Below are positions 12,480 to 28,026 of a stretch of DNA of 48,292 nucleotides, piece after piece. The translations under genes were made by a program, and so were the position numbers. Each line of letters begins with the position of its first letter. Positions within the stretch are counted from its first letter, which is position 1. Below the pieces are notes generated by a model. That model saw only the letters and a list, made by a program, of their open reading frames with translations, did not search any database and was not told the DNA's origin. Source of the stretch: Candidatus Omnitrophota bacterium (GTDB lineage: Bacteria; Omnitrophota; Gorgyraeia; Gygaellales; JBFMHM01); the NCBI GenBank assembly GCA_040753015.1, contig JBFMHM010000008.1, positions 11,154-59,445 on the forward strand, written 5' to 3'.

Positions 12480-13193
12480 ATGTCAAACGAATTATTTATT
12501 CTTTTAACTACGGCAGTTTCAGTTGGGTTTATTCATACATTACTTGGCCCGGATCATTATTTGCCATTCATAGTAATGGCTAAAGCGCGGCGATGGTCAT
12601 ACCTTAAAACAACTCTTATAACCTTTGTTTGTGGCCTAGGGCATGTAGCAAGTTCTGTATTAATAGGCTTGGTTGGCTTGCAGCTCGGGTTTGCTCTAAA
12701 TAAATTAGAATTTTTTGAGTCGTTAAGGGGTAATTGGGCTGGATGGGGTTTAATTATTTTTGGTTTTAGTTATTTTGTTTATGGTGTTTTTCGCGTAATT
12801 AAGAATAAACCTCATACACATTCACATTTCCATTTAGATGGTAATAAACATATGCATGAACATACTCACAAGGGTGAACATGTTCATGTTCACCAGCAAA
12901 CTATTTTTTCAAAAACAATTCCTTGGACGTTATTTGTAATTTTTGTTTTTGGCCCGTGCGAACCATTAATTCCGGTTTTGATGTATCCGGCATTAAAACA
13001 AAATTTGGCAAATATGTTTTTAATTGCGATAGTATTTGGTTTATCTACAATTTCGACAATGATAGGCATAGTTTTGGTTTCAACTTTTGGAATTAATATT
13101 TTACCGATAAAGCCGTTAGAGAAATATTCTCATGCTTTTGCAGGGTTTATAATTTTCTTCTGCGGTTTAGCAGTGCAATTTTTTGGTTTATAA
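12480..13193 (+). CDS. NicO/RcnA-like nickel/cobalt transporter with a central His-rich loop
   Basis: 3+3 TM layout, HTLLGPDH and FGPCEPLIP motifs (compare RcnA HGLEPGHSK / GGLIPCPAA), and the loop HTHSHFHLDGNKHMHEHTHKGEHVHVH. Sits directly upstream of [NiFe]-hydrogenase genes. Confidence 0.65.
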   Translation: MSNELFILLTTAVSVGFIHTLLGPDHYLPFIVMAKARRWSYLKTTLITFVCGLGHVASSVLIGLVGLQLGFALNKLEFFESLRGNWAGWGLIIFGFSYFVYGVFRVIKNKPHTHSHFHLDGNKHMHEHTHKGEHVHVHQQTIFSKTIPWTLFVIFVFGPCEPLIPVLMYPALKQNLANMFLIAIVFGLSTISTMIGIVLVSTFGINILPIKPLEKYSHAFAGFIIFFCGLAVQFFGL

Positions 13194-13200
13194 TTCTAAT

Positions 13201-13443
13201 ATGCATGAGACCCATCTTTTAGAAAAAATATTTAAATTTTTAGAAGATAAAGAAGTAGAATCAAGAAAAAAGATAAAAAAAGTATATTTTTGTATTTCTG
13301 AATTTGGTTCAATTTCAAAAGAGCATTTTTTGGAACATTTTAGAAAAGAATCTTGCGGCACTAAATGGCAGAATATTGATATTGAAATAAAAAAAGTTCC
13401 TGTTGGATCGGAACTTGAAATTACAAAGATTGATTTCGAATAA
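13201..13443 (+). CDS. hypA: HypA-like hydrogenase nickel-insertion protein lacking the zinc-finger domain (80 aa)
   Basis: Starts with MHE, the HypA Ni-binding N-terminus, at the ATG at 13201. The body aligns to the HypA N-domain and ends GSELEITKIDFE, like the HypA C-terminal strand. Neither CxxC pair is present. Confidence 0.6.
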   Translation: MHETHLLEKIFKFLEDKEVESRKKIKKVYFCISEFGSISKEHFLEHFRKESCGTKWQNIDIEIKKVPVGSELEITKIDFE

Positions 13444-13461: not shown

Positions 13462-14499
13462 GTGAAATACGCTTGTATTAAGAAAGAAGATATAAATAAA
13501 TGGCTTGAATATTTGAAAGAGAAGGCAAGCCTTTATGCGCCTAGAAAAAAGGAGAATCTATTCGTTTTTGATAAAGTTAAAGATATAGCCGATATCGTAT
13601 TATCATATATTCCTACGATTCTTCCTCCAAAGAAATATTATTTTCCTCAGAAAGAAAAATTGTATAATTTTAGTATTTCTCCGTTTAAAACCTCTAAGGC
13701 AATCGAAGAATTCGAGGAATATATTCTTTTTGCTGTGCATACCTGCGATATCGCCGGAATTCAATGTATGGATGTTGTATTTCGGGAAGGCCCGGAAGAT
13801 CCTAATTACTTGAACAGAAAAGAGAAGATGACGATTATAGGTATAGAATGTCTTAAACGTTGCGATAAATTTTCTAATTGCGTCTCTATGGGTAATCATA
13901 TTCCAAGGGGTGGCTATGATTTGATGATGATTGATATCGGAGATAATTTTATTTTGCATATCAATTCTCATAAAGGAGAAAATATTATTAAAGGGTTAAG
14001 TTATATTAAAGAAGCATCTTCAAAAGATATACTCAATCTAGATCGTGTAAGAGATGTAAAAAAACAAGATTTTAAGGAAGAATTTATTGCGCCATTAACT
14101 AAGGTGTACGAGGCCTTTGATAAACGTTTTAATTCTGATGTATGGGAAGATGTTGGAAGACGTTGTATTGCCTGTGGCAATTGTACGAACGTATGCCCGA
14201 CTTGTTATTGCTTTGATGTTAAAGATGAGTTAGAGCTGAACTTAAATGAAGGTACAAGGTCGCGGATATGGAATTCTTGTCAGATGGATGATTTTGCAAA
14301 AGTAGCTGGTGGAGAGGATTTCCGTAAAGGCCGTGATACCAGGCAGCGGCATAGATATTACAGGAAGTTTAAATACCCTGTTGATAAATTTAACAGATAT
14401 TTTTGTATTGGTTGTGGCAGATGTACCAGGACTTGTATGGCAGAGATAAATTTAGTTGATACAGTTAATTCGCTTCTTTCTAAGGAAGAAATTAAATAA
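13462..14499 (+). CDS. [NiFe]-hydrogenase group 3b-type (sulfhydrogenase-like) beta subunit; AsrA-like Fe-S protein
   Basis: CIACGNCTNVCPTCYCFD and CIGCGRCTRTCMAE ferredoxin-type motifs. Gene order beta-gamma-delta-alpha matches Pyrococcus-type sulfhydrogenases. Confidence 0.75.
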   Translation: MKYACIKKEDINKWLEYLKEKASLYAPRKKENLFVFDKVKDIADIVLSYIPTILPPKKYYFPQKEKLYNFSISPFKTSKAIEEFEEYILFAVHTCDIAGIQCMDVVFREGPEDPNYLNRKEKMTIIGIECLKRCDKFSNCVSMGNHIPRGGYDLMMIDIGDNFILHINSHKGENIIKGLSYIKEASSKDILNLDRVRDVKKQDFKEEFIAPLTKVYEAFDKRFNSDVWEDVGRRCIACGNCTNVCPTCYCFDVKDELELNLNEGTRSRIWNSCQMDDFAKVAGGEDFRKGRDTRQRHRYYRKFKYPVDKFNRYFCIGCGRCTRTCMAEINLVDTVNSLLSKEEIK

Positions 14500-14522
14500 A
14501 CACATATTAACGGAGAATAAAG

Positions 14523-15389
14523 ATGATTGACAGAGAAATACTTTTAGAAAAGATGAAGACCTCTCCTTATAAACCGATGAAGGCAAAGATTCTCGAAGCG
14601 AAAATGCTTACTGAGAATGAAAAGTTTTTTAGAATTGAACTTGAGGGTAAGATTAATCTTGGCCATGACCCCGGGCAATTTGTAATGGTGTCTATATTTG
14701 GTTACGAGGAAGCACCAATTTCTATTTGTTCATCGCCGACAGATAAAGGGTATTTTGATTTAACCGTAAGAAATGTTGGTAGTTTTACTAATAAATTACA
14801 TCAGTTAGAAAGAGGCGATATTCTTGGTATCCGTGGTCCGTTTGGCAAAGGTTTTCCCGTTGATAATATGTTTGGTAATGATTTAGTTATAGTTGCTGGC
14901 GGCTTAGGGATAGTTCCGCTTAGATCGTTGATTAGGTATATAATGCATAATAAAAATGCTTTTGGCAATGTTCAAATACTCCTTGGGTGCAAAACACCAA
15001 AGGATTTATTATTTAGAGAAGAAACAAAAGAATGGATGGAAAGATCAGAGATTAAATTTAATTGTACTGTTGACCGCGCAGACCCTGATTGGAAGGGAAA
15101 TGTCGGGCTTATTACATCATTGATTCCTGGGGTAGATATAAATCCTGCTAGGACTTATGCGGTAGTTGTTGGCCCGCCGATAATGTATAAGTTTGTTATT
15201 GTGAAATTACTCGAAAAAAATATTCCTGATCATCAAATTATTGTTTCTCTTGAGCGTAGAATGCGTTGCGGCCTTGGTAAGTGCGGCCATTGTCAGATTG
15301 AAGGTAAATATGTTTGTCAGTCTGGGCCGGTTTTTACTTACGCAGATTTAAAAGATTTTAAAGGAGAGTGCCATGAAAAAGCAATCTAA
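14523..15389 (+). CDS. Group 3b-type hydrogenase gamma subunit (FAD/NAD(P)-binding, [2Fe-2S]; AsrB-like)
   Basis: FNR-like motifs (APISICSSP, VAGGLGIVPL) and the C-terminal CGLGKCGHCQIEGKYVCQSGP cluster motif. Confidence 0.75.
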   Translation: MIDREILLEKMKTSPYKPMKAKILEAKMLTENEKFFRIELEGKINLGHDPGQFVMVSIFGYEEAPISICSSPTDKGYFDLTVRNVGSFTNKLHQLERGDILGIRGPFGKGFPVDNMFGNDLVIVAGGLGIVPLRSLIRYIMHNKNAFGNVQILLGCKTPKDLLFREETKEWMERSEIKFNCTVDRADPDWKGNVGLITSLIPGVDINPARTYAVVVGPPIMYKFVIVKLLEKNIPDHQIIVSLERRMRCGLGKCGHCQIEGKYVCQSGPVFTYADLKDFKGECHEKAI

Positions 15390-16137
15390 ACCAAAAGTAG
15401 CTTTCTTCGATTTTACAGATTGCGAGGGTTGCCAGCTTCAAATTGCAAATATGGGAGAGGCATTCCTTGAATTAGCCGAGCTTATTGATATAGTTAGCTT
15501 TCGTGAGATAATGTCAGAAGAAGGCCAAGATTATGACATAGCAGTTGTTGAAGGCAGCATTTCAACAGATAATGACGTTATGCGTATAAAGAAGATTAGA
15601 GAAAAAGCAAAAATTTTAGTTGCGTTTGGTTCTTGCGCTGCGATCGCAGGCGTTAACGGCATAAAAAATCGCACACCCCTAGATGTTGCTAAAACTAGAG
15701 TTTATGGTGATAAGGCGGATAAGATTAATACAATTAAAGCTATGCCGCTCGATCAGGTGGTAAAAGTTGATTACTATATTCTTAATTGTCCGCCATACAT
15801 CCCTGAAATAATTGCAGTTTTTAAGGCAATTCTTATGGGTAAACCATATCCTCGTCCAAATTATTCGGTATGCGTTGAATGTAAAATGAATGAAAACGTT
15901 TGTCGTTATGAAAAAGACGAAGAGTGTATGGGGCCGGTAACGCGCGCAGGATGTAATTCTTGGTGTGTTAATAATGGAAATCGCTGTTATGGCTGCCGTG
16001 GATTGCTAGATAATCCGGCGATTGAAGGCGCAAAAGATATTTTATTAAAATATGGGTTAAAAATCGAAGATATTTTAAACCATTTTACTTTATATAATGA
16101 TCCGCAGGGAGAGAAATATGACCAAGCATTCAAATAA
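15373..16137 (+). CDS. [NiFe]-hydrogenase small (delta) subunit
   Basis: FFDFTDCEGCQ proximal-cluster motif, GSCAAIAG, and multiple C-terminal Cys motifs (CVECKMNENVC, CNSWC, CYGCRG). Confidence 0.8.
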   Translation: MKKQSKPKVAFFDFTDCEGCQLQIANMGEAFLELAELIDIVSFREIMSEEGQDYDIAVVEGSISTDNDVMRIKKIREKAKILVAFGSCAAIAGVNGIKNRTPLDVAKTRVYGDKADKINTIKAMPLDQVVKVDYYILNCPPYIPEIIAVFKAILMGKPYPRPNYSVCVECKMNENVCRYEKDEECMGPVTRAGCNSWCVNNGNRCYGCRGLLDNPAIEGAKDILLKYGLKIEDILNHFTLYNDPQGEKYDQAFK

Positions 16138-17470
16138 TATTGATTCTCAAAATTTAAAAGTTGATGTCCATTATTTAACGCGTGTTGAGGGGCATGGTAA
16201 CATAGTGGTTGATGTAAAAGAAAGTAAGCTTACAAAATGCGAATTTCAAGTGATTGAATCACCGCGGTTTTTTGAATCTATGCTTGTAGGTAGATCAATT
16301 TGGGAAGCGCAACATATAACTTCAAGGATCTGCGGTATTTGTGCTTGTGGCCATAGTTTGGCAAGTGTTAAGGCCGGTGAAGATACTTTAGGTATAAAAC
16401 CAAGCGAAGAGACGGTTATGCTAAGAAAATTACTTTTATACGCTGAGCAATTAGACAGCCATATTTTACATATTTATGTGCTTGTAGCGCCGGATCTTTT
16501 AGGCGTAAAGAGTATTATGCCGCTAATAAAAACTCATAAACCGGTGATTGAAATGGCGCTTCGCATGAAAAGAATGAGTGATTATGCGGGCGAAGTATTA
16601 GCTGGTAGGCATATTCATCCTATAAGTTATGTAATTGGTGGGCTTACACAGCTCCCTAAAAAAGAGAATTTAGAGAAGCTTTATAAAATGATGCTTGATA
16701 GCCGGAAAGATGGAGAAGAGACTGTAAAAATTATTAAAACCCTTAAATTTCCTCAATTCGACAGGCCTACGCAATACTTATCTCTTAAATCCGAAGAAGA
16801 GTATGCTTTTTATGACGGTGATTTAGTCGTTAATGGCAGTCAATTGACAAAAATTCGGGATTACCGTAAGCTTCTTTCAGAAACTGTGGTTGATTATTCA
16901 AAGGCTAAGATAGCTAGAATAAATGGTAAAACTTATGCAGTCGGCGCCTTAGCCAGATTCAATAATAATTTTGATAAATTACACAAAAAGGCAAAAGATG
17001 TTGCTAAAGAGTTAGGATTAAAAGCGCCAGTACATAATCCTTATTTAAATACAGCAGCTCAACTTGTTGAATGGGTTCATTGTTTAGAAGAATCAATTAC
17101 GATTATGGAGAAAATTTTAAAAGATGGCCTTGATGAGAAAAAAATAGTTGTTAGTTCTTGGCCAAAAAGAAGTGAGATAGGGAAAGTAAAATATAAACCT
17201 AATACGGGTATTTCATGTGTTGAGGTACCTAGGGGAAGTTTATTTCATGAGTATACAATTAATGATACCGCGCATATAACAGCTGCTAATTGCGTAATTC
17301 CCACAAACCAGAATATGGGTAATTTGGAAGATGATATGCGCAAGATCGTGCCAGAACTTCTTGGTAAAAAGACGCAAGAAGAGATAACTTTTGATTTGGA
17401 AATGCTCGCCAGAAGTTATGATCCTTGTATTTCCTGCGCAACGCACTTGTTAGATATAAAATTTGAATAA
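16118..17470 (+). CDS. [NiFe]-hydrogenase large (alpha) subunit
   Basis: N-terminal RICGICACGHS (RxCGxCxxxH) and C-terminal DPCISCATH (DPCxxCxxH) Ni-Fe ligands, followed by a 7-aa tail. GGGAGAG lies upstream of the ATG at 16118. Confidence 0.9.
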   Translation: MTKHSNNIDSQNLKVDVHYLTRVEGHGNIVVDVKESKLTKCEFQVIESPRFFESMLVGRSIWEAQHITSRICGICACGHSLASVKAGEDTLGIKPSEETVMLRKLLLYAEQLDSHILHIYVLVAPDLLGVKSIMPLIKTHKPVIEMALRMKRMSDYAGEVLAGRHIHPISYVIGGLTQLPKKENLEKLYKMMLDSRKDGEETVKIIKTLKFPQFDRPTQYLSLKSEEEYAFYDGDLVVNGSQLTKIRDYRKLLSETVVDYSKAKIARINGKTYAVGALARFNNNFDKLHKKAKDVAKELGLKAPVHNPYLNTAAQLVEWVHCLEESITIMEKILKDGLDEKKIVVSSWPKRSEIGKVKYKPNTGISCVEVPRGSLFHEYTINDTAHITAANCVIPTNQNMGNLEDDMRKIVPELLGKKTQEEITFDLEMLARSYDPCISCATHLLDIKFE

Positions 17471-17948
17471 GTTTGCTGTAATTGGTTTAGGTAATACTTT
17501 AAGGCGAGATGATGGCGTCGGTATAATTGTCTTGGAGTCACTCCTTAAGCATCACAAGCAGTCAAATTTAGATTATTTAAATTACGGTGTTACAAGTTTT
17601 GATCTTATTAATCGTGTTGGGCAGTATGATTTAGTTTTTCTTCTCGATGGAATAAACGCCGGTTTAACGGCAGGTTCATTAAAGATATTCGAATTAAAAG
17701 ATATAAAATATAATTCTAATAATACTTCTGCTTCTACTCACGAATTAGATTTAACGACCTTATTTGAGCTTTATAAGAAATTTGAACTTTCAACAAAAAT
17801 ATATGTTTTGGGAATTCAAGTAAGCGATATATCCTTCGAAGAAGGCCTCAGCGATAAATTAAAAACTCAATTGGAGCAAAATATAAAAGAAATAAATTCT
17901 TTTATCTGCGATAAAATAAAATGTGTTACGCAATCCCAGGAAAAATAG
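17463..17948 (+). CDS. Hydrogenase maturation endopeptidase (HycI/HoxW/HyaD family)
   Basis: VIGLGNTLRRDDGVG N-terminal motif, the later metal-binding D and H (LLDGIN, STHELD), about 160 aa. The TTG start overlaps the large-subunit stop. Confidence 0.8.
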   Translation: MNKFAVIGLGNTLRRDDGVGIIVLESLLKHHKQSNLDYLNYGVTSFDLINRVGQYDLVFLLDGINAGLTAGSLKIFELKDIKYNSNNTSASTHELDLTTLFELYKKFELSTKIYVLGIQVSDISFEEGLSDKLKTQLEQNIKEINSFICDKIKCVTQSQEK

Positions 17949-19222
17949 AGAAAATAGAAAATAATTTAGTTACTGTTGATTATTTTGGCGAAAAAAGGAA
18001 CGCCTATAATGAGCTAGAAAACTTATTCTTGGGAGATTATATTTATGCGCAAGGAGGTTATGTTATTAATAAAATATCTAATCTAGAGGCAGAGAGTATT
18101 TTAGCTACGTGGAAAGAAGAATTTTTTGAGCTCCAAAAGGTAGATTTAAGATTATCACGTATAGACCTCGAGAAAAAAGGTATAGATAAAAAAGTAAGTG
18201 AAATATTAGACAGGATTCTTGAGAATAAAATGGTTAAACCGGATGAGTTAGGTTATTTATTGGCTATAAAAAATGATTCGGATAAACAGCTATTATTTAA
18301 AACCGCTAATTTTTCACGCAGCAAGAATTTTGGCAATTCTTGTTGTGTGCATGGGATCATCGAAATATCAAATCATTGTAAGAGAAATTGTTATTATTGC
18401 GGGATATCCAATCATAACAGGAAGATTATCCGTTATAGGATGGATAAAGAAGAAATATTAGAGGCCGTCAGGGAGGCGGTTGAGGTATACGGTTTTAAGG
18501 CGCTTGTTTTACAGAGCGCAGAAGACCTAGCTTATAAAATTGAGGAGTTGGCAGACATTATTAAGGAGATTAAAAAAAGGTATCCCGTTTTAATTTTTAT
18601 TAGTTTTGGAGAAATTGGAATCGAGGGGCTTAGAAAATTATATGAAGCTGGAGCAAGGGGTCTGCTATTGCGGTTTGAAACTTCAAACCAAAAAATTTAT
18701 GAAAAACTGCACCCGGGGTATTGTCTTGATACAAGGTTGGAGCATCTTAAGAAGGCTTTTGAAATTGGATATCTATTGATTACAGGTAGTTTAATAGGTT
18801 TGCCCGGTCAGACTAGGGAAGATTTAGTTAACGATATACTACTTGCAAAAGAATTAAATGCTGAAATGTTTAGTTTTGGCCCATTCTTACCTAGTCCAAA
18901 CACACCGCTTGAGAATTTAACCGCTCCATTACCAGAAGATATATTTAAAATTCTTTCCATTGCGCGTTTAGTTGATCAGAAAAAAGCAAAAATTCTAATC
19001 ACAACCGCGTTCGAAACACTGGATATAAGCGCAAGAAAGAAAGGCCTGCTTTCTGGGGCAAATTCAGTTATGTTAAATGTTACGCCTCTAAAATATAGAC
19101 AGTTATATTCTATTTATCCAAAAAGAGCCCATGAAAACGAAGAAATAGATAAACAAATAAATGAAACAATTTATTTATTAAGAGATTTAGGGCGCTCCCC
19201 TACAGATTTAAGCATGGGATAA
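17921..19222 (+). CDS. Fusion protein: N-terminal HypC/HupF-like chaperone domain plus a full-length HydE-like radical SAM enzyme
   Basis: Residues 1-75, MCYAIPGKIEKIENNLVTVDYFGEKRNAYN...GDYIYAQGGYVINKISNLEAESIL, match the HypC signature (MC-x-x-x-PG, GD-x-hydrophobic...EA). The rest matches HydE: IIEISNHCKRNCYYCGISNHNRKIIRYRM, VLQSAEDLAY, GANSVMLNVTPLKYRQLYSIYP. No stop codon lies between the two parts. Confidence 0.75.
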   Translation: MCYAIPGKIEKIENNLVTVDYFGEKRNAYNELENLFLGDYIYAQGGYVINKISNLEAESILATWKEEFFELQKVDLRLSRIDLEKKGIDKKVSEILDRILENKMVKPDELGYLLAIKNDSDKQLLFKTANFSRSKNFGNSCCVHGIIEISNHCKRNCYYCGISNHNRKIIRYRMDKEEILEAVREAVEVYGFKALVLQSAEDLAYKIEELADIIKEIKKRYPVLIFISFGEIGIEGLRKLYEAGARGLLLRFETSNQKIYEKLHPGYCLDTRLEHLKKAFEIGYLLITGSLIGLPGQTREDLVNDILLAKELNAEMFSFGPFLPSPNTPLENLTAPLPEDIFKILSIARLVDQKKAKILITTAFETLDISARKKGLLSGANSVMLNVTPLKYRQLYSIYPKRAHENEEIDKQINETIYLLRDLGRSPTDLSMG

Positions 19223-19321: not shown

Positions 19322-19951
19322 ATGATGGTAAATCGAAATTGTATTATACGCCTTTCTCGTTATAAAAACGCTCTTTTTCGACTTAAGGCTTTGGGTTTTA
19401 TGAAAGTATTTTCTGATAATCTAGCTGATGCGGTAGGTGTTACAGCTGCACAAGTTCGAAAGGATTTTTCTTTGTTTGGCGTGACAGGTAATAAAAAAGG
19501 CGGTTATTTAGTAGATTCTTTGATTGAAAGATTAAATATTATACTTGGGAAAGATAGCGTGAATAATGTAATTATTATAGGGGCGGGGAATATTGGCACT
19601 GCTCTTATGAAATATAAAGGGTTTGAAAAAGAAGGAATTAAAATTATAGCTTGTTTTGATATTGATCCAATAAAGTTTAGTAAAAAAGCCGATATTCCCG
19701 TATTGCCTTTAGAAAACATAAAAGATTTTATCAAGAATAATGAAGTGAAGATCGGTATTATTGCTGTGCCGGATATCGCAGCGCAAAATGTCTTAGACAT
19801 TTTAGCCGTATCTGGAGTTAAGGGAGTGTTAAATTTTGCCCCTATAAGATTGAAAGGACCAGACGATTGTATTATCAATAATGTTAATTTAGAGCATGAG
19901 CTTGAAAATGTGATTTATTTTGTGAATACACAGGAAAAAACTAAACAATGA
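19322..19951 (+). CDS. rex: Redox-sensing transcriptional repressor Rex
   Basis: N-terminal wHTH (RLSRYKNALFRLKALG...VGVTAAQVRKDFSLFG) and Rossmann motif IIIGAGNIGTAL. About 210 aa. Confidence 0.85.
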   Translation: MMVNRNCIIRLSRYKNALFRLKALGFMKVFSDNLADAVGVTAAQVRKDFSLFGVTGNKKGGYLVDSLIERLNIILGKDSVNNVIIIGAGNIGTALMKYKGFEKEGIKIIACFDIDPIKFSKKADIPVLPLENIKDFIKNNEVKIGIIAVPDIAAQNVLDILAVSGVKGVLNFAPIRLKGPDDCIINNVNLEHELENVIYFVNTQEKTKQ

Positions 19952-22153: not shown

Positions 22154-23971
22154 ATGATTAGATATGTTATTACATTATGCGATGGGCCTAGCTGTATGCA
22201 AAAAAAATCAAAAGAACTTCAAGAAATTATAGAAAAGCAGCTTGATAATTTGGGTGTTAGGCAAAAGGTGCAAATTAATTTATCCGGTTGCCTGGGTATG
22301 TGCGCTAAAGGCCCGGTTATGGTTATCAATCCCGGATATACTATATATGGGAATATCTCTGAGAAAGATGTGCCAGAAATTATAGAAAGCCATATTGTTA
22401 AGAAAAAACCTTTAGCAAAATTTATCGTAGATCAGGATCATTTATTTAATCGTTTTTATAGGGTATTTGGTGACGTAAATTTCTTTGGTAAGCAGATGAG
22501 AATCGTTCTTCGTAATTGCGGTATTATCGATCCAGAAAATATAAATGATTATTTATCAGTAAGGGGCTATGAGGCATTGGCAAAGGTTCTAACTGATATG
22601 AGCCCTAAAGATATTATTGCTGAAATTAAAAAATCAGGTTTAAGAGGGCGAGGCGGCGCAGGATTTCCTACCGGTTTTAAATGGGAGCTTGCCGCTAGTG
22701 AGGAGTCTTTAGAAAAATATATCATTTGTAACGCTGATGAAGGGGATCCAGGCGCATTTATGGACAGGAGTACAATAGAAGGAGATCCTCATACAGTAAT
22801 TGAGGGTATGATAATAGGCGCTTATGCTGTGGGTGCGAAAAAAGGCATTATTTATATTCGGGCAGAATATCCGCTTGCAATTAAAAGATTAGAAAAAGCA
22901 ATTAATGATGCTAGGCAGCATAAATTTCTAGGTGACGATATTTTAGGGACAAAATTTTGTTTTGATATTGAAATAAGACTAGGGGCAGGGGCTTTTGTTT
23001 GCGGAGAAGAGACAGCTTTAATTCATTCAATCGAAGGTTCTCGCGGTATGCCGCGTCCTCGGCCGCCATTTCCTTCTGTTTCAGGGTTATTTGATAAGCC
23101 AACCGTAATCAATAATGTTGAGACTTTGGCAAATATTCCTGTGATTATTCTTGATGGTGCGAAATGGTTTAGTTCTATTGGTACAGAAAAATCAAAAGGA
23201 ACAAAAGTCTTTGCGTTGGCAGGGAAAATAAATAATACAGGATTAGTAGAGGTGCCAATGGGGACTACTTTAAGACAGATTATTTATGATATCGGAGGAG
23301 GTATTCCTAATAACAAAAAATTTAAAGCAGTCCAGACCGGTGGGCCATCGGGCGGGTGTTTACCAGAAATATATCTTGATACAAAAATTGACTACGAATC
23401 ATTATTAGCCGCAGGTTCAATTATGGGTTCAGGAGGAATGATTGTAATTGATGAAGATTCTTGTATGGTGAATATTGCAAGATTTTTCTTGGAATTTACA
23501 CAAAACGAATCTTGTGGTAAATGCACTCCTTGCCGGGAAGGGACAAAAAGAATGTTTGAGATTTTAACTCGTATTACTCAAGGCAAAGGTAAAGAAGGAG
23601 ATATTGAAAAATTAGAGAGGCTAGGTAATATGATTAAGAAATCGTCTTTATGTGGGTTAGGTCAGTCTGCGCCAAACCCAGTTTTAAGCACGATAAAAAA
23701 TTTTAGAGAAGAATATATCGAGCATATTAATTATAAAAAATGCCGCGCTGGCCAATGTCAGGGTTTATTTAATTTTGAAATTAATGAAAAATGTATCGGC
23801 TGTGGTGTTTGTAAAAAAGTTTGCCCTAACCAGGCAATATTCGCAAGCCCAAAATCTAAGTATCAAATTATTCAAGATAAATGTATTAAGTGCGGGCTTT
23901 GTTTTAAGGTTTGTAAATTTAACGCAATCAATAAGATTTTAAAAGAGGTAAACTTATGGAAAAGAAATTAG
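22154..23971 (+). CDS. hydB: NuoF-like NAD(P)H/FMN-binding subunit (HydB) of a multimeric [FeFe]-hydrogenase
   Basis: N-terminal Trx-like 2Fe-2S (CDGPSC...GCLGMC), GRGGAGFPTGFKW, ESCGKCTPCREG, and two C-terminal ferredoxin motifs, CIGCGVCKKVCP and CIKCGLCFKVC. Confidence 0.9.
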   Translation: MIRYVITLCDGPSCMQKKSKELQEIIEKQLDNLGVRQKVQINLSGCLGMCAKGPVMVINPGYTIYGNISEKDVPEIIESHIVKKKPLAKFIVDQDHLFNRFYRVFGDVNFFGKQMRIVLRNCGIIDPENINDYLSVRGYEALAKVLTDMSPKDIIAEIKKSGLRGRGGAGFPTGFKWELAASEESLEKYIICNADEGDPGAFMDRSTIEGDPHTVIEGMIIGAYAVGAKKGIIYIRAEYPLAIKRLEKAINDARQHKFLGDDILGTKFCFDIEIRLGAGAFVCGEETALIHSIEGSRGMPRPRPPFPSVSGLFDKPTVINNVETLANIPVIILDGAKWFSSIGTEKSKGTKVFALAGKINNTGLVEVPMGTTLRQIIYDIGGGIPNNKKFKAVQTGGPSGGCLPEIYLDTKIDYESLLAAGSIMGSGGMIVIDEDSCMVNIARFFLEFTQNESCGKCTPCREGTKRMFEILTRITQGKGKEGDIEKLERLGNMIKKSSLCGLGQSAPNPVLSTIKNFREEYIEHINYKKCRAGQCQGLFNFEINEKCIGCGVCKKVCPNQAIFASPKSKYQIIQDKCIKCGLCFKVCKFNAINKILKEVNLWKRN

Positions 23972-25734
23972 TTTTAGTTCATATTGATGATAGGCCATAT
24001 CAAGTGGAGGCAGGGCAAACAATAATGCAGGCAGCTGACAAATTGGGTTATCATATACCACGGCTTTGTTACCATCCTAAAATTTCTATTGAAGGGGCTT
24101 GCCGTGTTTGTATTGTTGAAGTTGAAGGGATGAAAAATTTTGTTGCTTCATGCGCATTTCCAATCGCTGACGGCATGAAAATTAGGACCCATACTAAAGA
24201 ATTAAGGACAGCTCGCCGGGATATCGTTGAGTTGATTTTAGATAATCATCCCGAAGATTGCCATACTTGCGAAAGAGATGGTATTTGCGAATTACAAAGG
24301 CTTGCTTATGCTATGGGTTTAAGGCATAGGCATTTTGAAGGCGAGAAAAAAGATTACGAGAAAGATCTTTCTTCTACGGCTGTGATAAGAGACCCTAATA
24401 AGTGCATTCTTTGCGGAAGGTGTGTGAGGATTTGTTCTGAAGTGCAGAAGGTAAATGCATTAGGCCATGCCTATCGCGGGTTTAAAACCGTAGTAATGCC
24501 CGCTTATGATATGCCATTTAAAGATAGCGTTTGTACTACCTGTGGACAATGTATTAATGTTTGTCCGACTGCTGCATTTGTTGAAAAAAATTATACTCAA
24601 GAATTATTTGAGAAACTTCAAGACAAAAAATTTGTAAAAATTGCCCAAATTGCTCCATCAGTAAGGGCTGCAATTGGAGAGGCATTTGGTTTTCCTCCGG
24701 GTAGGGCTATGCATCTTGAGACAGTTGCTTGTTTAAAGAGGCTTGGTTTTGACTATGTTTTTGATACACAGCTTACTGCTGATTTGACAATTATGGAAGA
24801 GGCAAGCGAATTCTTAGAAAGGCTTGGAGGAAAAGGAAAGCTTCCTATGATTACTTCTTGTTCAAGCGCATGGATGAAATACATGGAGCAATTTTGTCCC
24901 GATTTAATTGAAAATATATCTACTTGTAAATCACCTATGTCAATGATGGGCGCTCTTTTAAAAAGTTATTTTGCGCAAAAGATTAAAAAAAATCCTACGG
25001 ATATTTTAAGTGTGGCTGTGATGTGTTGTACTGCGAAAAAATATGAAGCAGCCCGTCCAGAGTTAGAGATTGATAGTTTAAGGGCAGTAGATATTGTTGT
25101 AACTACGCGAGAAATAGCTTGGATGATTAAGTCAGCTGGCATTGATTTTGTAAATATAAAAGGGGAGCAATTTGATGAGCCACTTGGAATTTCATCGGGA
25201 GCAGGTGCAATATTTGGGGCAACCGGTGGTGTTATGGAAGCTGCAATTAGGACTGCTTATGAGCTTTATACCGGAGAAACTCTTATGGATATAGAATTAA
25301 ATGATTTAAGGGGTTTAAGCGGCATTAAGGAAGGAAAAATAAATATAGACGGCAAAGAGATAAGGGTTGCTGTTGCGCATGGCTTAGGTAATGCAAGCGA
25401 GCTTCTTTCTATAATAAGAAAAGATCCGGATAGATTCCATTTTATAGAAATAATGGGTTGTCCTGGTGGGTGCATCGGCGGCGGCGGGCAGCCCTATGCA
25501 GGGAGTAATTCAATACCACTTGATGAAGAGTGTTTAAGAAAACGCGCTCAGGCGCTTTATGATATCGACAGAGGAAAAACTATTAGAAGGAGCCATGAAA
25601 ATCCTGATGTTCAAAAGATATATAAAGAATTTTTAGGCAGGCCATTAGGAGCTTTGTCGCATAAATATCTGCATACGCATTATAAACCAAAAGAGCCGCG
25701 TGGTATAATTCCAGAAGAGATTAAAGCAAGGTAA
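23956..25734 (+). CDS. hydA: [FeFe]-hydrogenase catalytic subunit (HydA, NuoG-like N-terminus plus H-cluster domain plus small-subunit-like tail)
   Basis: 2Fe-2S (CYHPKISIEGACRVCIVE), His-ligated cluster (HPEDCHTCERDGICELQ), two ferredoxin motifs, and H-cluster motifs TSCSSAW / MCCTAKKYE / EIMGCPGGCIGGGGQP. Confidence 0.9.
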   Translation: MEKKLVLVHIDDRPYQVEAGQTIMQAADKLGYHIPRLCYHPKISIEGACRVCIVEVEGMKNFVASCAFPIADGMKIRTHTKELRTARRDIVELILDNHPEDCHTCERDGICELQRLAYAMGLRHRHFEGEKKDYEKDLSSTAVIRDPNKCILCGRCVRICSEVQKVNALGHAYRGFKTVVMPAYDMPFKDSVCTTCGQCINVCPTAAFVEKNYTQELFEKLQDKKFVKIAQIAPSVRAAIGEAFGFPPGRAMHLETVACLKRLGFDYVFDTQLTADLTIMEEASEFLERLGGKGKLPMITSCSSAWMKYMEQFCPDLIENISTCKSPMSMMGALLKSYFAQKIKKNPTDILSVAVMCCTAKKYEAARPELEIDSLRAVDIVVTTREIAWMIKSAGIDFVNIKGEQFDEPLGISSGAGAIFGATGGVMEAAIRTAYELYTGETLMDIELNDLRGLSGIKEGKINIDGKEIRVAVAHGLGNASELLSIIRKDPDRFHFIEIMGCPGGCIGGGGQPYAGSNSIPLDEECLRKRAQALYDIDRGKTIRRSHENPDVQKIYKEFLGRPLGALSHKYLHTHYKPKEPRGIIPEEIKAR

Positions 25735-25751
25735 TTTTTAGGAGATGAATT

Positions 25752-26234
25752 ATGGAAATGATTGATAATAAAAAGATAGGCATTCTAAAAGATCACATTA
25801 AGAGTTTTTCTAATAAACCGCATCCGGAATCAAACCTTATAGCTATTTTACATAAAGCTCAGGAACTTTTTGGTTATCTTGATAAAGATGTAATGAATGA
25901 AATTGCATTATTTATGAATATTCCACGGGCTCATATTTGGGGAGTGGCAACTTTTTATCATTTTTTTAGGCTAAAACCCCAAGGTAAACATTCTATTTCT
26001 ATATGTTTAGGTACCGCTTGCTATGTTAAGGGTGCTAGTGAGATTCTTGATATGATAAAAAGTGAATTAAAAATTGATATTGGAGAGACTACGCAGGATG
26101 GATTATTTACCTTAATCGAAACTAGGTGTTTAGGCGCTTGTGGCCTTGCGCCGGTGATAATGATTGATGAAAAAATTTATGGCAATATTACACCAAAAAA
26201 AGCTATCGAAATTTTAAAAACTTTTAAAAAATAG
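25752..26234 (+). CDS. hydC: NuoE-like [2Fe-2S] subunit (HydC) of the [FeFe]-hydrogenase
   Basis: ISICLGTACYVKGA...TRCLGACGLAPVIMID is the NuoE C-x4-C...C-x3-C pattern. About 160 aa. Confidence 0.85.
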   Translation: MEMIDNKKIGILKDHIKSFSNKPHPESNLIAILHKAQELFGYLDKDVMNEIALFMNIPRAHIWGVATFYHFFRLKPQGKHSISICLGTACYVKGASEILDMIKSELKIDIGETTQDGLFTLIETRCLGACGLAPVIMIDEKIYGNITPKKAIEILKTFKK

Positions 26235-26652: not shown

Positions 26653-28026
26653 ATGAAACACATTAACGAAGATAAAATAGTTGGTTTAATTGAGAAGGCA
26701 AAGAATGTAAGCGCAAGAGATATTAAGGCGATATTAGAGAAGAGTAAATTGCTTAAGCGGCTAACGCTTGAAGAAACAGCTAGTCTTTTAGCAGTGAAAG
26801 ATGAAGCATTGATTAAGAAAATATTCGATGCTGCTTGGTATGTTAAAGATACTATTTATGGCCGCAGGATGGTTATCTTTGCACCACTTTATATAAGCAA
26901 TATCTGTTCAAATAATTGTTTATATTGTGCATTTAAATCAGATAATAAATTAGTCGAAAGAAAAGCGCTTAGCCTAGATGAAATTAAAAACGAAGTAGAA
27001 TTACTTTTAAAAAAGGGCCATAAGCGGATTCTGCTTGTTGCTGGAGAAAAGGATGATAATGTAAGTTATTATGTTGATGCAATCAGGGCAATTTACTCAG
27101 TTAAAATAGGCAAGAATTATATTCGCCGTGTTAACATTAATTGCGCGCCACTTTCTGTAGAGGATTTTAAGAAAATAAAGGCCGCAGGTATTGGGACATA
27201 TCAGCTTTTTCAGGAAACATACCACGATGTAACTTACAGAAAAGTTCATCCGAAAGGCCCAAAATCTGACCCAGATAATAGGCTCGATGCGGTTGATCGT
27301 GCTTTTAAAGCGGGAATTGATGATCTTGGAATAGGTGTTTTATATGGGTTATATGATTACAAATTCGATACATTAGCACTTCTTTCACATATTGAATATT
27401 TAGAAAAAACTTTTGGCCTCGGGCCGCATACGATATCAGTTCCAAGAATTGAACCGGCATTCGGCTCTGATTTTAGTAAAAACGTTCCTTACAAAATAAG
27501 TGATAGCGAATTTAAAAAAATCATCGCAATTCTACGATTGTCAGTTCCTTATACAGGAATGATTCTTTCAACGCGCGAATCTTCTGGCCTTCGCGATGAG
27601 TTATTTAGTTTAGGTATATCACAAATTAGCGCGGAATCAAAAACATCTCCTGGCGGATATCAAGAGGGCAGAAAAGATATTGCATCGCAGTTTGCAATTA
27701 GCGATGAGAGAACATTAGATGAGGTTGTCGCATCTTTAATTAAAAAAGATTTTATTCCTAGTTTTTGTGCGGCGTGTTATAGAAAAGAGCGCACAGGTGG
27801 AACTTTTATGAATTTAGCAAAACCGGGGGCAATAAAAGATAAATGCACGATTAACGGTATAATTACTTTTAAGGAATATTTAGATGATTTTGCTTCAGAT
27901 GAAGTTAAAAAAAATGGTAATAATTTAATAAATAGATTTAAAGAAAGATTAGGCAGAAATGATAAAGCTTTGTTAGAAGAATATTTAAAGAATATTGAAC
28001 AAGGCGCGCGCGATGAATATATCTAA
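26653..28026 (+). CDS. hydG: [FeFe]-hydrogenase H-cluster maturase HydG (radical SAM tyrosine lyase)
   Basis: YISNICSNNCLYCAF radical SAM motif, a ThiH-like body, and the C-terminal C-x2-C-x22-C motif (FCAACYRKERTGGTFMNLAKPGAIKDKC). Confidence 0.9.
   Translation: MKHINEDKIVGLIEKAKNVSARDIKAILEKSKLLKRLTLEETASLLAVKDEALIKKIFDAAWYVKDTIYGRRMVIFAPLYISNICSNNCLYCAFKSDNKLVERKALSLDEIKNEVELLLKKGHKRILLVAGEKDDNVSYYVDAIRAIYSVKIGKNYIRRVNINCAPLSVEDFKKIKAAGIGTYQLFQETYHDVTYRKVHPKGPKSDPDNRLDAVDRAFKAGIDDLGIGVLYGLYDYKFDTLALLSHIEYLEKTFGLGPHTISVPRIEPAFGSDFSKNVPYKISDSEFKKIIAILRLSVPYTGMILSTRESSGLRDELFSLGISQISAESKTSPGGYQEGRKDIASQFAISDERTLDEVVASLIKKDFIPSFCAACYRKERTGGTFMNLAKPGAIKDKCTINGIITFKEYLDDFASDEVKKNGNNLINRFKERLGRNDKALLEEYLKNIEQGARDEYI

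What the first reader, a model, noticed from the sequence alone, without database searches (positions are those of the whole stretch)
17921..19222. HypC-like [NiFe] chaperone domain fused to a HydE-like [FeFe] radical-SAM maturase, at the 3' end of a [NiFe]-hydrogenase operon
Seen: one uninterrupted 433-codon ORF. The first ~75 residues carry the HypC/HupF signature: Met-Cys at positions 1-2, MCYAIPGKI, then GDYIYAQGGYVINKISNLEAESIL. The remaining ~350 residues are collinear with HydE: IEISNHCKRNCYYCGISNHNRKIIRYRM, VLQSAEDLAY, NVTPLKYRQLYSIYP. The ORF overlaps the [NiFe] endopeptidase gene by 28 nt, so it belongs to the [NiFe] operon. A second, stand-alone hydE with the C-terminal Cys triad sits in the hydGEF set about 8.8 kb downstream (28013-29071). 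No hypB/D/E/F is in the window. Established: HypC carries the Fe(CN)2CO moiety to the [NiFe] large subunit. HydE processes the HydG-made Fe(CO)2(CN)-cysteine synthon for the [FeFe] H-cluster. The anaerobic source of the [NiFe] CO ligand is still unresolved. Inference: a covalent HypC::HydE-like protein suggests radical-SAM chemistry coupled directly to the [NiFe] iron-ligand scaffold, or crosstalk between the two maturation pathways. I do not know of a described example of this architecture.
Basis: partly seen in the sequence, partly recalled or inferred. Interest (0 to 1): 0.82.

Follow-up and report, generated by a model that had tools for sequence, protein, structure and literature searches.

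The report
HypC–HydE-like fusion in [NiFe] hydrogenase operons
A conserved protein that joins the iron-carrying chaperone of nickel-iron hydrogenases to a radical enzyme from the iron-iron hydrogenase pathway, almost always next to the CO/cyanide-making enzyme HydG, points to an undescribed way of building the nickel-iron active site in hundreds of uncultured anaerobes.

Summary
Window 17921-19222 is one 433-codon ORF. It has an N-terminal HypC domain (Pfam 45.3 bits, cut-off 28.5), a conserved helical linker, and a HydE-type radical-SAM barrel (TM 0.92-0.95 to T. maritima HydE).

It is not an assembly artefact. About 200 distinct sequences and 316 species-representative genomes carry it (Omnitrophota, Margulisiibacteriota, Saganbacteria, Brevinematales and others).

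In relatives a canonical HydG is adjacent, translationally coupled, or covalently fused to it (HypC+HydE-like+HydG, 881-906 aa). The pair sits in or beside [NiFe] operons of three classes (3b, 4, and one with a cytochrome b), usually after the protease and HypA, in the hypC slot.

The radical-SAM domain keeps every residue that binds and processes HydG's Fe(CO)2(CN)-cysteine product. It replaces the three residues that cradle the di-iron product (R54H, T134F, R155G) and gains an invariant Cys. The HypC domain keeps Cys2 but never has the His needed for HypD binding.

No hypD, hypE or hypF occurs in 2.31 Mb of neighbourhoods (173 loci).

Best reading: a HydG, HydE-like, HypC route that supplies the Fe-CO/CN unit to [NiFe] large subunits. 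I found no description of it. Genome-wide absence of HypD/E/F could not be tested.

The parts
13183..13443 (+). Short HypA-like nickel chaperone. The likely true start is 13201 (MHETHLL). It keeps the N-terminal MHE motif and lacks the zinc-finger domain.
   Evidence: Pfam HypA 27.9 bits against a cut-off of 28.9. Alignment with the 80-aa HypA of L001 and L004 and with full-length HypA of L091 and E. coli.
13462..15389 (+). Group 3b-type [NiFe] hydrogenase beta and gamma (diaphorase) subunits.
   Evidence: The best NCBIfam hits are sulfhydrogenase ShyB/HydB and ShyC/HydG-gamma. Pfam finds Fer4_22 and FAD/NAD-binding domains.
15373..17470 (+). Group 3b-type [NiFe] hydrogenase small (delta) and large (alpha) subunits. 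The large subunit has CGIC (79) and DPCISCATH (442-450) metal-binding motifs and a short C-terminal extension.
   Evidence: Pfam Oxidored_q6 and NiFeSe_Hases, with NCBIfam sulfhydrogenase best hits. Motifs read from the translation.
17463..17948 (+). HycI/HyaD-type large-subunit maturation endopeptidase. It overlaps the fusion gene by 28 nt.
   Evidence: Pfam HycI 52.5 bits; TIGR00072 103.2 bits.
17921..18112 (+). Fusion protein, HypC/HupF domain (aa 1-64). The N-terminal Met-Cys2 is kept. The conserved His of HypC (E. coli H51) is replaced by Gln44.
   Evidence: Pfam PF01455 45.3 bits. Alignment to solved HypC structures. Across 200 homologues C2 is present in 199, and position 44 is Q in 194 and never H.
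18113..18205 (+). Fusion protein, conserved linker (aa 65-95, WKEEFFELQKVDLRLSRIDLE...), predicted to be a long helix.
   Evidence: Conservation in alignment A1. Column conservation is 0.67, against 0.71 for the HypC domain. AlphaFold2 predicts a helix at 67-85, with pTM 0.82.
18206..19222 (+). Fusion protein, HydE-like radical-SAM TIM-barrel domain (aa 96-433), without the C-terminal Cys triad.
   Evidence: TIGR03956 262.3 bits. Phmmer to TmHydE E=3e-62. Foldseek TM 0.92-0.95 and rmsd 1.7 A.
18341..18352 (+). Clade-specific motif Cys141-Cys142-Val-His144. These align with TmHydE positions 51-54, where canonical HydE has V-[HYF]-[LIV]-R.
   Evidence: C142 and H144 are present in 200/200 fusions. 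Canonical HydE has R54 in 94/103.
18377..18400 (+). Radical-SAM CX3CX2C motif (C153, C157, C160).
   Evidence: Invariant in all sequences.
19322..19951 (+). Rex-type redox-sensing repressor. In many relatives it is also directly downstream of the fusion.
   Evidence: Pfam Put_DNA-bind_N + CoA_binding. Synteny.
22154..26234 (+). Trimeric [FeFe] hydrogenase genes (NuoF-like, HydA, NuoE-like). In relatives without them, HydG directly follows the fusion or Rex.
   Evidence: Pfam. Locus comparison.
26653..28026 (+). HydG, the tyrosine-cleaving CO/CN- synthase. It is the only HydG in the window and is orthologous to the HydG that is adjacent to the fusion in relatives.
   Evidence: TIGR03955 506.2 bits against a cut-off of 312. 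Fusion-adjacent and [FeFe]-context HydGs are interleaved.
27995..30309 (+). Canonical HydE (with R54/T134/R155 equivalents and the Cys triad) and HydF. Together they are the ordinary [FeFe] maturation set and are kept in addition to the fusion.
   Evidence: TIGR03956 330.7 bits and TIGR03918 499 bits. Sequence. Signature table.

Best explanation
The gene encodes a [NiFe]-hydrogenase maturation protein of an undescribed type. It works with HydG as a radical-SAM route that makes the iron-carbonyl/cyanide unit of the [NiFe] cofactor and hands it to the large subunit.

Proposed steps:
1. HydG cleaves tyrosine and assembles an Fe(CO)2(CN)(cysteinate) synthon. This is established HydG chemistry, and the HydG here has all the motifs for it.
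2. The HydE-like domain binds that synthon in the same pocket as HydE and uses the 5'-deoxyadenosyl radical to strip off the cysteine backbone. This is inferred from full conservation of the pocket.
3. Canonical HydE holds two Fe(I) units and dimerises them. Here the remodelled lower cavity (R54H, T134F, R155G, new invariant Cys142) is proposed to retain a mononuclear Fe unit instead. This is an inference.
4. The unit passes to Cys2 of the covalently attached HypC domain, which docks on the apo large subunit and delivers it. The HypC role is established; the hand-over is inferred.
5. The minimal HypA (with HypB in some lineages) then inserts nickel, and the HycI protease finishes maturation.

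In the window's organism one HydG serves both this route and the ordinary HydE/HydF route for the neighbouring [FeFe] hydrogenase. It remains open whether HypD/E/F are also needed, for example to supply the second cyanide.
For: - Covalent linkage of all three parts. P0122 (906 aa) and P0130 (881 aa) are HypC+HydE-like+HydG in one chain. Both lie in [NiFe] clusters.
- HydG adjacency. In 81 species-level loci HydG lies within 1.2 kb downstream in 32 of the 65 loci with enough sequence, and elsewhere in the locus in 12 more. In 80 metagenome loci of the divergent branch it is adjacent or fused in 45. The genes often overlap by 4-8 nt.
- The adjacent gene is a bona fide HydG. It scores 456-537 bits on TIGR03955 and 512 bits against T. 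italicus HydG, and it has the GPHTIS and CX2CX22C motifs.
- [NiFe] context in three classes. The fusion follows a 3b large subunit in 56 loci and a group 4 large subunit in 11 of 81. It lies between diaphorase and catalytic subunits in the divergent branch. In L091 it follows a hydrogenase cytochrome b, protease, HypA and HypB. HypA is directly upstream in 52 of 79 loci.
- Even the unfused clade member P0141 lies between a [NiFe] large-subunit gene and HydG.
- The substrate pocket is kept. Equivalents of TmHydE Q107, R159, M224 and M291 are present in 200/200, R180 in 198/200, and T268 and T269 in 197 and 195 of 200. M224 and M291 carry the Fe(I)S(CO)2(CN) species (PMC11826987).
- The residues reported to contact the CN ligands of the di-iron product (R54, T134, R155; PMC11826987) are replaced by H, F and G/A, and a new invariant Cys appears.
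- Genomes with an [FeFe] hydrogenase in the locus keep a separate canonical HydE where enough sequence is available (window, L009, L011, L038).
- HydF occurs in only 3 of 81 and 1 of 80 loci.
- The HypC domain lacks the His that PMC9002611 shows is needed for HypD interaction.
- No hypD/E/F was found in 173 loci, 2.31 Mb and 10,706 ORFs, by phmmer or by four motif tests whose E. coli controls were positive.
Against: - There are no experimental data, and every carrier is an uncultured MAG or SAG.
HydG could therefore be present for an [FeFe] enzyme encoded elsewhere.
- In the window itself HydG sits with HydE/HydF, 7.4 kb from the fusion.
- HydG's known product carries 2 CO + 1 CN, whereas the [NiFe] site needs 1 CO + 2 CN. 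The origin of the second cyanide is unexplained.
- Two divergent loci (L101, L124) have a small canonical HypC, with the His, beside the fusion. This hints that a HypD-type partner may exist in some genomes.
- 21 of 65 and 25 of 80 loci show no HydG nearby.
- Support for a separate clade is moderate: NJ bootstrap 132/200, no outgroup.
- HypD/E/F seeds came only from E. coli, and no positive control from these phyla was available.
Confidence: 0.6

Rival explanations
1. Auxiliary supplier. The fusion plus HydG provide only the CO ligand (or a pre-carbonylated iron) to an otherwise standard HypC-HypD-HypE-HypF pathway encoded elsewhere in the genome. This would be a functional analogue of HypX for strict anaerobes.
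For: The anaerobic CO source is unknown, and aerobes use an add-on enzyme, HypX (PMC12134894). HydG's product has the wrong CO:CN ratio for a complete [NiFe] iron unit. A canonical His-bearing HypC lies beside the fusion in L101 and L124. HypB occurs with the fusion in five loci, so other Hyp genes do coexist with it.
Against: The fused HypC domain has lost the His that supports HypD binding in all 200 sequences. hypD/E/F never appear in 2.31 Mb around the fusion, although hypC-hypD adjacency is the norm in classical operons such as E. coli hypABCDE. In L091 HydG occupies the position after the hypC-like gene.
Confidence: 0.25
2. [FeFe]-pathway paralogue. The protein is a second HydE for H-cluster assembly, and its HypC-like domain merely serves as an iron carrier toward HydF. 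Its position next to [NiFe] genes would then reflect a shared, Rex-regulated hydrogen-metabolism island.
For: The best family hit is HydE, and the window's copy is just above the equivalog cut-off. The window and about 10 other loci also hold HydA, and some of them also show HydG, HydE or HydF. Fusion-adjacent HydGs are orthologous to [FeFe]-cluster HydGs. L008 has fusion-HydG-HydF.
Against: HydF is absent from 157 of 161 surveyed loci and HydA from 151. Loci with HydA keep a separate canonical HydE where enough sequence is available. The fusion is embedded between [NiFe] structural, protease and HypA/HypB genes in three hydrogenase classes. The residues that cradle the di-iron product are all replaced. 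Relatives score below the HydE cut-off at 238.6 and 239.0.
Confidence: 0.08
3. Different chemistry. The radical-SAM domain acts on something other than the HydG synthon, for example by modifying the large subunit or making a sulfur or carbon ligand. The HypC domain would then only target it to the apo-enzyme.
For: Changes at positions 52, 54, 134 and 155 show that the product side of the cavity differs from HydE. 21 of 65 and 25 of 80 loci lack a nearby HydG.
Against: All residues that bind the cysteinyl-iron synthon and carry the Fe(I) intermediate are kept. Triple fusions with HydG argue for direct substrate channelling.
Confidence: 0.06
4. Artefact. A missed stop or frameshift joins two separate genes (hypC and a hydE paralogue) in this assembly.
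For: None beyond the general possibility. One unfused clade member exists (P0141).
Against: About 200 distinct full-length homologues from NCBI, ENA, JGI and Logan assemblies share the architecture, the length and a conserved linker. The model has pTM 0.82.
Confidence: 0.01

Closest known systems
HydE, the radical-SAM [FeFe]-hydrogenase maturase (TIGR03956; T. maritima structures 3CIW, 5FEW, 7O1O)
   Same: Same fold (TM 0.92-0.95, rmsd 1.7 A, 40% identity). Same CX3CX2C motif. Same residues for binding the Fe(CO)2(CN)-cysteine synthon and carrying the Fe(I) intermediate (Q107, R159, R180, M224, T268/T269, M291). Works next to HydG.
   Different: Carries an N-terminal HypC domain and a conserved linker helix. 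R54, T134 and R155 are replaced by H, F and G/A, and a new invariant Cys appears at position 52. There is no C-terminal Cys triad. Relatives score below the equivalog cut-off. It forms its own clade with 66% NJ bootstrap. It is found in [NiFe] operons, not hydEFG/hydA operons, and it coexists with a canonical HydE where [FeFe] enzymes are present.
HypC/HybG/HupF, the [NiFe] iron-unit chaperone (PF01455; structures 2Z1C, 3VYR)
   Same: Matches the full-length Pfam model, keeps the essential N-terminal Cys2 and the MCxxxPG motif, and occupies the hypC position after hypA/hypB or the protease in [NiFe] operons.
   Different: Fused to a 340-aa enzyme rather than standing alone at 75-110 aa. The conserved His at the HypD interface (E. 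coli H51) is Gln. It is never adjacent to hypD. It scores below the TIGR00074 cut-off.
HydG-HydE-HydF pathway for the [FeFe] H-cluster
   Same: Uses a canonical HydG and a HydE-type enzyme in tandem. The inferred substrate is the same organometallic synthon.
   Different: There is no HydF partner in most loci. The inferred acceptor is HypC Cys2 and a [NiFe] large subunit instead of HydF and HydA. The inferred product is mononuclear, not di-iron.
HypCD scaffold with HypE/HypF, plus HypX in aerobes
   Same: Addresses the same task, which is putting CO and CN- on one iron and delivering it to the large subunit. Like HypX, it would be a dedicated source of CO.
   Different: Radical-SAM, tyrosine-derived ligands instead of carbamoyl phosphate (CN-) and formyl-THF (CO). 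No [4Fe-4S] HypD scaffold was seen near it.
Other maturase fusions and HcgA/HmdB of [Fe]-hydrogenase (recalled from memory, except the HMM score)
   Same: Fusions between hydrogenase maturases are known, for example the algal HydEF. A HydE/BioB-like radical-SAM enzyme (HcgA/HmdB) also serves the third hydrogenase class.
   Different: Those fusions stay within one pathway. This one crosses between the [NiFe] and [FeFe] systems. The HmdB model scores only 63.8 bits against a cut-off of 320.9.

Membership tests
HypC/HupF family (PF01455 / TIGR00074) | Profile match above the curated cut-off. | tested here: inconclusive
   Pfam PF01455 scores 45.3 against 28.5 (met) over model positions 1-65 of 65. 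NCBIfam TIGR00074 scores 34.7 against 48 (not met). Solved HypCs match at E about 1e-6.
HypC/HupF family (PF01455 / TIGR00074) | N-terminal Met-Cys, with Cys2 as the iron ligand. | tested here: met
   MCYAIPG in the window. C2 is present in 199 of 200 homologues.
HypC/HupF family (PF01455 / TIGR00074) | Conserved His (E. coli H51) at the HypC-HypD interface. | tested here: not met
   The aligned position is Gln44. Across 200 homologues it is Q in 194, T in 3, A in 2 and Y in 1, never H. Role of the His: PMC9002611 and PMC12134894.
HypC/HupF family (PF01455 / TIGR00074) | Works with HypD (gene neighbourhood or complex). | tested here: not met
   No HypD by phmmer or by the GPGCPVC, GFETT+CGxHxH motifs in 173 loci and 2.31 Mb. 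Genome-wide presence and physical interaction are not testable with these tools.
HydE (TIGR03956 equivalog) | Equivalog HMM score above the cut-off. | tested here: inconclusive
   The window's protein scores 262.3 against 254.6 (just met). The relatives in L001 and L004 score 238.6 and 239.0 (not met). The window's canonical HydE scores 330.7.
HydE (TIGR03956 equivalog) | Radical-SAM CX3CX2C motif and the HydE TIM-barrel fold. | tested here: met
   C153/C157/C160 are invariant. Foldseek TM 0.92-0.95 to TmHydE.
HydE (TIGR03956 equivalog) | Synthon-binding and Fe(I)-carrier residues (Q107, R159, R180, M224, T268/T269, M291). | tested here: met
   Q107, R159, M224 and M291 equivalents are present in 200/200, R180 in 198/200, T268 in 197/200 and T269 in 195/200. 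Residue roles: PMC11826987.
HydE (TIGR03956 equivalog) | Polar residues contacting the CN ligands of the di-iron product (R54, T134, R155). | tested here: not met
   H in 200/200; F in 175/200 (otherwise C or L); G/A in 200/200. Canonical HydE has R in 94/103, T in 94/103 and R in 95/103.
HydE (TIGR03956 equivalog) | Genomic association with HydF and HydA. | tested here: not met
   HydF occurs in 3 of 81 and 1 of 80 loci. HydA occurs in 9 of 81 and 1 of 80. Association with HydG is met.
HydE (TIGR03956 equivalog) | Converts the HydG synthon to the [2Fe] precursor for HydF. | not testable with these tools
   Requires biochemistry.
BioB / PylB / HmdB radical-SAM families | Equivalog HMM above the cut-off. 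| tested here: not met
   PylB 149.8 against 348.2. BioB 91.7 against 225. HmdB 63.8 against 320.9.
HydG (partner gene, TIGR03955) | Equivalog HMM above the cut-off, CX3CX2C, dangler-iron His and a C-terminal auxiliary-cluster motif. | tested here: met
   456-537 bits against 312. 512 bits to TiHydG, with GPHTIS and CX2CX22C. A sub-lineage has a rearranged Cys motif.

The most novel reading that the evidence does not exclude
In at least some of these lineages the minimal set of HypA, HypC::HydE-like fusion, HydG and protease builds the whole NiFe(CN)2CO cofactor without HypD, HypE or HypF. Both CO and CN- would then come from tyrosine. This would be a second, radical-SAM pathway for [NiFe]-hydrogenase maturation. 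It would give a concrete answer, for these anaerobes, to where the CO ligand comes from, and it would link the [NiFe] and [FeFe] maturation systems evolutionarily.
Probability: 0.3. Interest if true: 0.95.

Novelty: new variant of a known kind. Interest (0 to 1): 0.88.

Why it matters
The 2025 review of the field states that six Hyp proteins are required for anaerobic [NiFe] cofactor synthesis. [quoted passage not shown]

Here, hundreds of anaerobic lineages have physically welded the [NiFe] iron chaperone to a HydE-type enzyme, and sometimes also to HydG, the one enzyme known to make both CO and CN- on iron. They have placed that module inside [NiFe] operons. This makes a specific hypothesis directly testable: tyrosine-derived ligands for a [NiFe] site. 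The test needs a small gene set that could be expressed in E. coli hyp mutants.

If it holds, it has three consequences:
- It changes the view that the two hydrogenase maturation systems are unrelated.
- It explains how genome-reduced bacteria (1.3-1.5 Mb Omnitrophota) could afford [NiFe] enzymes.
- It offers a 3-4 gene maturation kit for heterologous [NiFe] hydrogenase production.

It also flags a systematic annotation error. These proteins are currently named HydE, biotin synthase or HypC, depending on the source.

Tried and rejected
- **Frameshift or assembly artefact.** Rejected on conservation.
- **BioB or PylB identity.** Rejected on HMM scores and fold ranking.
- **Strict monophyly of fused sequences only.** 0/200 bootstraps. 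The reason was four sequences (P0141, P0144, P0155, P0237) that lack a HypC domain or are fragments; three carry the clade signature, and P0155 does not cover that region. With them included, support is 132/200.
- **First neighbour tally.** It undercounted group 4 enzymes, because their large subunit lies about 7 kb upstream behind the Mrp-like subunits. Corrected.
- **Regex for the HydG auxiliary-cluster motif.** It flagged 19 HydGs. On inspection most are a lineage-specific rearranged Cys motif (CTAGYRCGRTGxC...C), not a loss. The variant also occurs in a HydF-HydG-HydE context, so it is not [NiFe]-specific.
- **Retrieving the 11 kb of the source contig outside the window.** No record was found.
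- **Hyp gene content of Margulisbacteria, Saganbacteria and Omnitrophota from the literature.** The papers do not report it.
- **Residue roles.** A structural review (PMC10114646) used different residue labels and gave nothing. PMC11826987 supplied them.
- **Distances in the AlphaFold model.** The tool returns no coordinates, so the Cys2 to Cys142/His144 distance could not be measured.


Full report
**1.

Window 17921-19222 (+) is a single ATG-initiated ORF of 433 codons with no interruption.
- Residues 1-64 match the whole Pfam HupF_HypC model at 45.3 bits (gathering cut-off 28.5). They also match three solved HypC structures. The stricter TIGR00074 model is below its cut-off (34.7 against 48).
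- Residues 96-412 match the HydE equivalog TIGR03956 at 262.3 bits, only just above its cut-off of 254.6. PylB, BioB, ThiH, HydG and HmdB are far below theirs.
- T. maritima HydE aligns end to end at E=3e-62.
- An AlphaFold2 model (mean pLDDT 83, pTM 0.82) superposes on HydE crystal structures with TM 0.92-0.95 and rmsd 1.7 A. PylB and BioB come next.
- The gene overlaps the HycI-type protease gene by 28 nt.
- It follows four genes whose best matches are the sulfhydrogenase (group 3b) beta, gamma, delta and alpha subunits.
- The large subunit has the usual CGIC and DPCISCATH metal motifs.

Downstream of the fusion the window holds Rex, a histidine kinase, a trimeric [FeFe] hydrogenase, a receiver-only response regulator, HydG, a canonical HydE with the C-terminal Cys triad, and HydF. 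No HypB/D/E/F is in the window. A short HypA-like ORF precedes the operon at 13183-13443.

**2. It is a real, widespread protein family**

- A word-indexed search returned at least 120 clusters at 60-68% identity. All are about 433 aa with both Pfam domains. Sources name them HydE, HypC chaperone, biotin synthase or radical SAM protein.
- An exhaustive search of 1.84 billion representatives found about 20 clusters (at 50% identity) that align from residue 1.
- A scan of one genome per GTDB species found 316 genomes. They are mostly Omnitrophota, with Margulisiibacteriota, Saganbacteria/WOR-1, Brevinematales and bins labelled Planctomycetes, Atribacterota and others.
- The linker (aa 65-95) is about as conserved as the domains and is predicted helical.

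An assembly artefact is therefore excluded.

**3. The missing partner is HydG**

In Saganbacteria, Margulisbacteria and a third lineage the gene order is [NiFe] hydrogenase, HycI, an 80-aa HypA, the fusion, then a 457-509 aa radical-SAM/BATS protein. The last two often overlap by a few bases.

That protein is a bona fide HydG:
- It scores 456-537 bits on TIGR03955 (cut-off 312).
- It scores 512 bits against T. italicus HydG.
- It has the dangler-iron His region and the C-terminal CX2CX22C auxiliary-cluster motif.

Two representatives, P0122 (906 aa) and P0130 (881 aa), are triple fusions of HypC, the HydE-like domain and HydG in one chain. Both lie inside [NiFe] hydrogenase clusters.

**4. Systematic context**

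I annotated every ORF of 81 species-level loci (1.32 Mb) with phmmer. Seeds came from the window, from relatives and from the E. coli hyp operon.

| Feature (81 loci) | Count |
|---|---|
| Fusion preceded on the same strand by a group 3b large subunit | 56 |
| Preceded by a group 4 (Mbh/Mrp-type) large subunit | 11 |
| Only protease/HypA visible upstream | 7 |
| HypA directly upstream | 52 of 79 |
| HydG within 1.2 kb downstream (directly or after Rex) | 32 of 65 with enough sequence |
| HydG elsewhere in the locus | 12 more |
| HydA present | 9 |
| Canonical HydE present | 6 |
| HydF present | 3 |

Where an [FeFe] hydrogenase is present, its genes sit between Rex and HydG. A separate canonical HydE follows HydG where enough sequence is available (window, L009, L011, L038). 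Fusion-adjacent and [FeFe]-context HydGs are interleaved orthologues, for example 82% identity between L009 and L034/L008. So there is one HydG type, and in the window it is evidently shared.

A second scan was aimed at the divergent half of the family and returned 80 metagenome loci.
- HydG was adjacent or fused in 45.
- A new arrangement appeared in which the fusion and HydG lie between the diaphorase subunits and the small and large subunits.
- Other divergent members show further contexts. P0138 has hydrogenase cytochrome b (PF01292), protease, full-length HypA, HypB, fusion, HydG; that is the fusion in the hypC slot, with HydG where hypD normally is. P0126 is a bare fusion-HydG pair. The unfused clade member P0141 lies between a [NiFe] large-subunit gene (…DPCMSCAAH…) and HydG.

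**5. No hypD, hypE or hypF nearby**

Across 173 loci, 2.31 Mb and 10,706 ORFs there is no phmmer hit to HypD, HypE or HypF. There is also no match to the HypD GPGCPVC or CGxHxH motifs, the HypE C-terminal PRIC, or the HypF double zinc finger. All of these motifs fire on the E. coli controls. HypA (more than 60 loci), HypB (5 loci) and the protease are readily found by the same method. Precomputed Pfam tables for 12 loci agree.

This is neighbourhood evidence only. Whole genomes could not be searched.

**6. Residue-level signature**

I reconstructed T. maritima HydE numbering from the PDB alignment and verified it at 19 positions. I then compared 42 fusion-clade sequences with 103 canonical HydEs and checked 200 distinct fusions.

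Kept in the fusion clade:
- the radical-SAM cysteines (200/200);
- V105 and L157 (41 and 42 of 42);
- Q107, R159, M224 and M291 (200/200 each);
- R180 (198/200), T268 (197/200) and T269 (195/200).

M224 and M291 are the methionines that carry the Fe(I)S(CO)2(CN) species derived from HydG's synthon (PMC11826987).

Changed in the fusion clade:

| TmHydE position | Canonical HydE | Fusion clade |
|---|---|---|
| R54 | R in 94/103 | H in 200/200 |
| T134 | T in 94/103 | F in 175/200 |
| R155 | R in 95/103 | G/A in 200/200 |
| 52 | H, Y or F | C in 200/200 |

R54, T134 and R155 are three of the four polar residues that the same paper reports as contacting the CN ligands of the di-iron product.

The window's own canonical HydE has the canonical residues. 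In an NJ tree the signature-bearing sequences form a clade with 132/200 bootstrap support. Relatives of the fusion score below the HydE equivalog cut-off.

In the HypC domain, Cys2 is kept (199/200). The highly conserved His (E. coli H51) is Gln in 194 of 200 and is never His. That His lies at the HypC-HypD interface, and exchanging it weakens HypD binding and abolishes activity (PMC9002611; PMC12134894).

**7. Interpretation**

The following are shown:
- the architecture and its spread;
- the physical and genomic coupling of HypC, the HydE-like domain and HydG;
- the [NiFe] context in three hydrogenase classes;
- the split between a conserved substrate side and a remodelled product side of the HydE cavity;
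- the loss of the HypD-interface His;
- the absence of hypD/E/F nearby.

The following are inferred. HydG's Fe(CO)2(CN)(Cys) synthon is processed by the HydE-like domain. It is kept mononuclear, perhaps by Cys142/His144. It is passed to Cys2 of the fused HypC domain and delivered to the apo large subunit, before HypA-dependent nickel insertion and proteolysis.

The unexplained point is ligand stoichiometry: HydG's product carries 2 CO + 1 CN, whereas the [NiFe] site needs 1 CO + 2 CN.

I put 0.6 on a [NiFe]-directed HydG, HydE-like, HypC route. Within that, whether HypD/E/F are dispensable is open, at about 0.3 for at least some lineages. Two loci with a small His-bearing HypC next to the fusion caution against a universal replacement.

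Rival readings are an [FeFe]-pathway paralogue, unrelated chemistry, and an artefact. The data above disfavour them.

**8. Novelty**

Nine full-text searches and reading of the relevant reviews found no description of a HypC-HydE fusion or of HydG/HydE-type genes acting in [NiFe] maturation. NCBIfam release 20 has no dedicated model. The library does not cover most subscription journals, so an existing report cannot be fully excluded.

The parts belong to known families. The combination and its context are new, so I rate it a new variant of a known kind, with high interest because it makes a long-standing question experimentally approachable.

Noticed in passing
window 13183-13443 (+); also L001 9756-9998 and L004 9753-9998: A minimal HypA of about 80 aa keeps the N-terminal MHE nickel-binding motif but lacks the whole zinc-finger (double CxxC) domain. 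It is the form found next to the fusion in most Omnitrophota, Margulisbacteria and Saganbacteria loci. The divergent L091 has a full-length 110-aa HypA plus HypB.
   Followed up: partly
L026, L040, L041, L047-L051, L057, L062, L072, L074, L079, L081, L083, L084 and L027 (HydG genes): A sub-lineage of HydG has a rearranged auxiliary-cluster motif, SFCTAGYRCGRTG[KE]CIM...FC. The second Cys of CX2C is replaced by Gly and two new Cys lie downstream. The variant also occurs in a HydF-HydG-HydE context (L027), so it is lineage-specific rather than [NiFe]-specific.
   Followed up: partly
P0173, P0177, P0212, P0248: Another N-terminal fusion of a HydE-family enzyme: a putative Se/S carrier domain (PF11823) joined to a HydE-like radical-SAM domain of about 440 aa. 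It has its own active-site variant (Asp at Tm52, Asn at Tm155, Arg54 kept).
   Followed up: no
P0147 (803 aa): A HydE-HydG fusion without a HypC domain and with canonical HydE residues (His52, Arg54). This shows that HydE-HydG coupling by fusion also exists on the canonical side.
   Followed up: no
window 26261-26644 (+); also L001 12737-13105 and L002 12726-13073: A receiver-only response regulator (115-127 aa, no output domain) is repeatedly found immediately beside HydG. It lies upstream in the window and downstream in Saganbacteria/Margulisbacteria loci. Its role is unknown.
   Followed up: no
window 19322-19951 (+) and many loci: A Rex redox-sensing repressor gene directly follows the fusion in many lineages. 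Where an [FeFe] hydrogenase is present, its genes are inserted exactly between Rex and HydG, as if a cassette had been gained or lost at that point.
   Followed up: partly
L101 10379-10585 (-); L124 162-395 (+): Small stand-alone HypC proteins lie beside the fusion. They carry the canonical His and an unusual His-rich loop (PHHSHK, HDGHDHK).
   Followed up: partly
P0237 (377 aa): An unfused member of the signature clade has a Gly-rich insertion inside the radical-SAM cysteine motif (C-SGSGIAGEKGGGGG-C-LY-C, that is CX14CX2C instead of CX3CX2C).
   Followed up: no
window 30260-31978 (+): A YgiQ-family radical-SAM protein (Radical_SAM_N, DUF3362) starts within the end of hydF. It is a third or fourth radical-SAM gene in this stretch, and its relation to the hydrogenase genes is unknown.
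   Followed up: no
window 11573-12349 (+): An AbiEii-type nucleotidyltransferase toxin gene (type IV toxin-antitoxin) lies just upstream of the hydrogenase operon.
   Followed up: no
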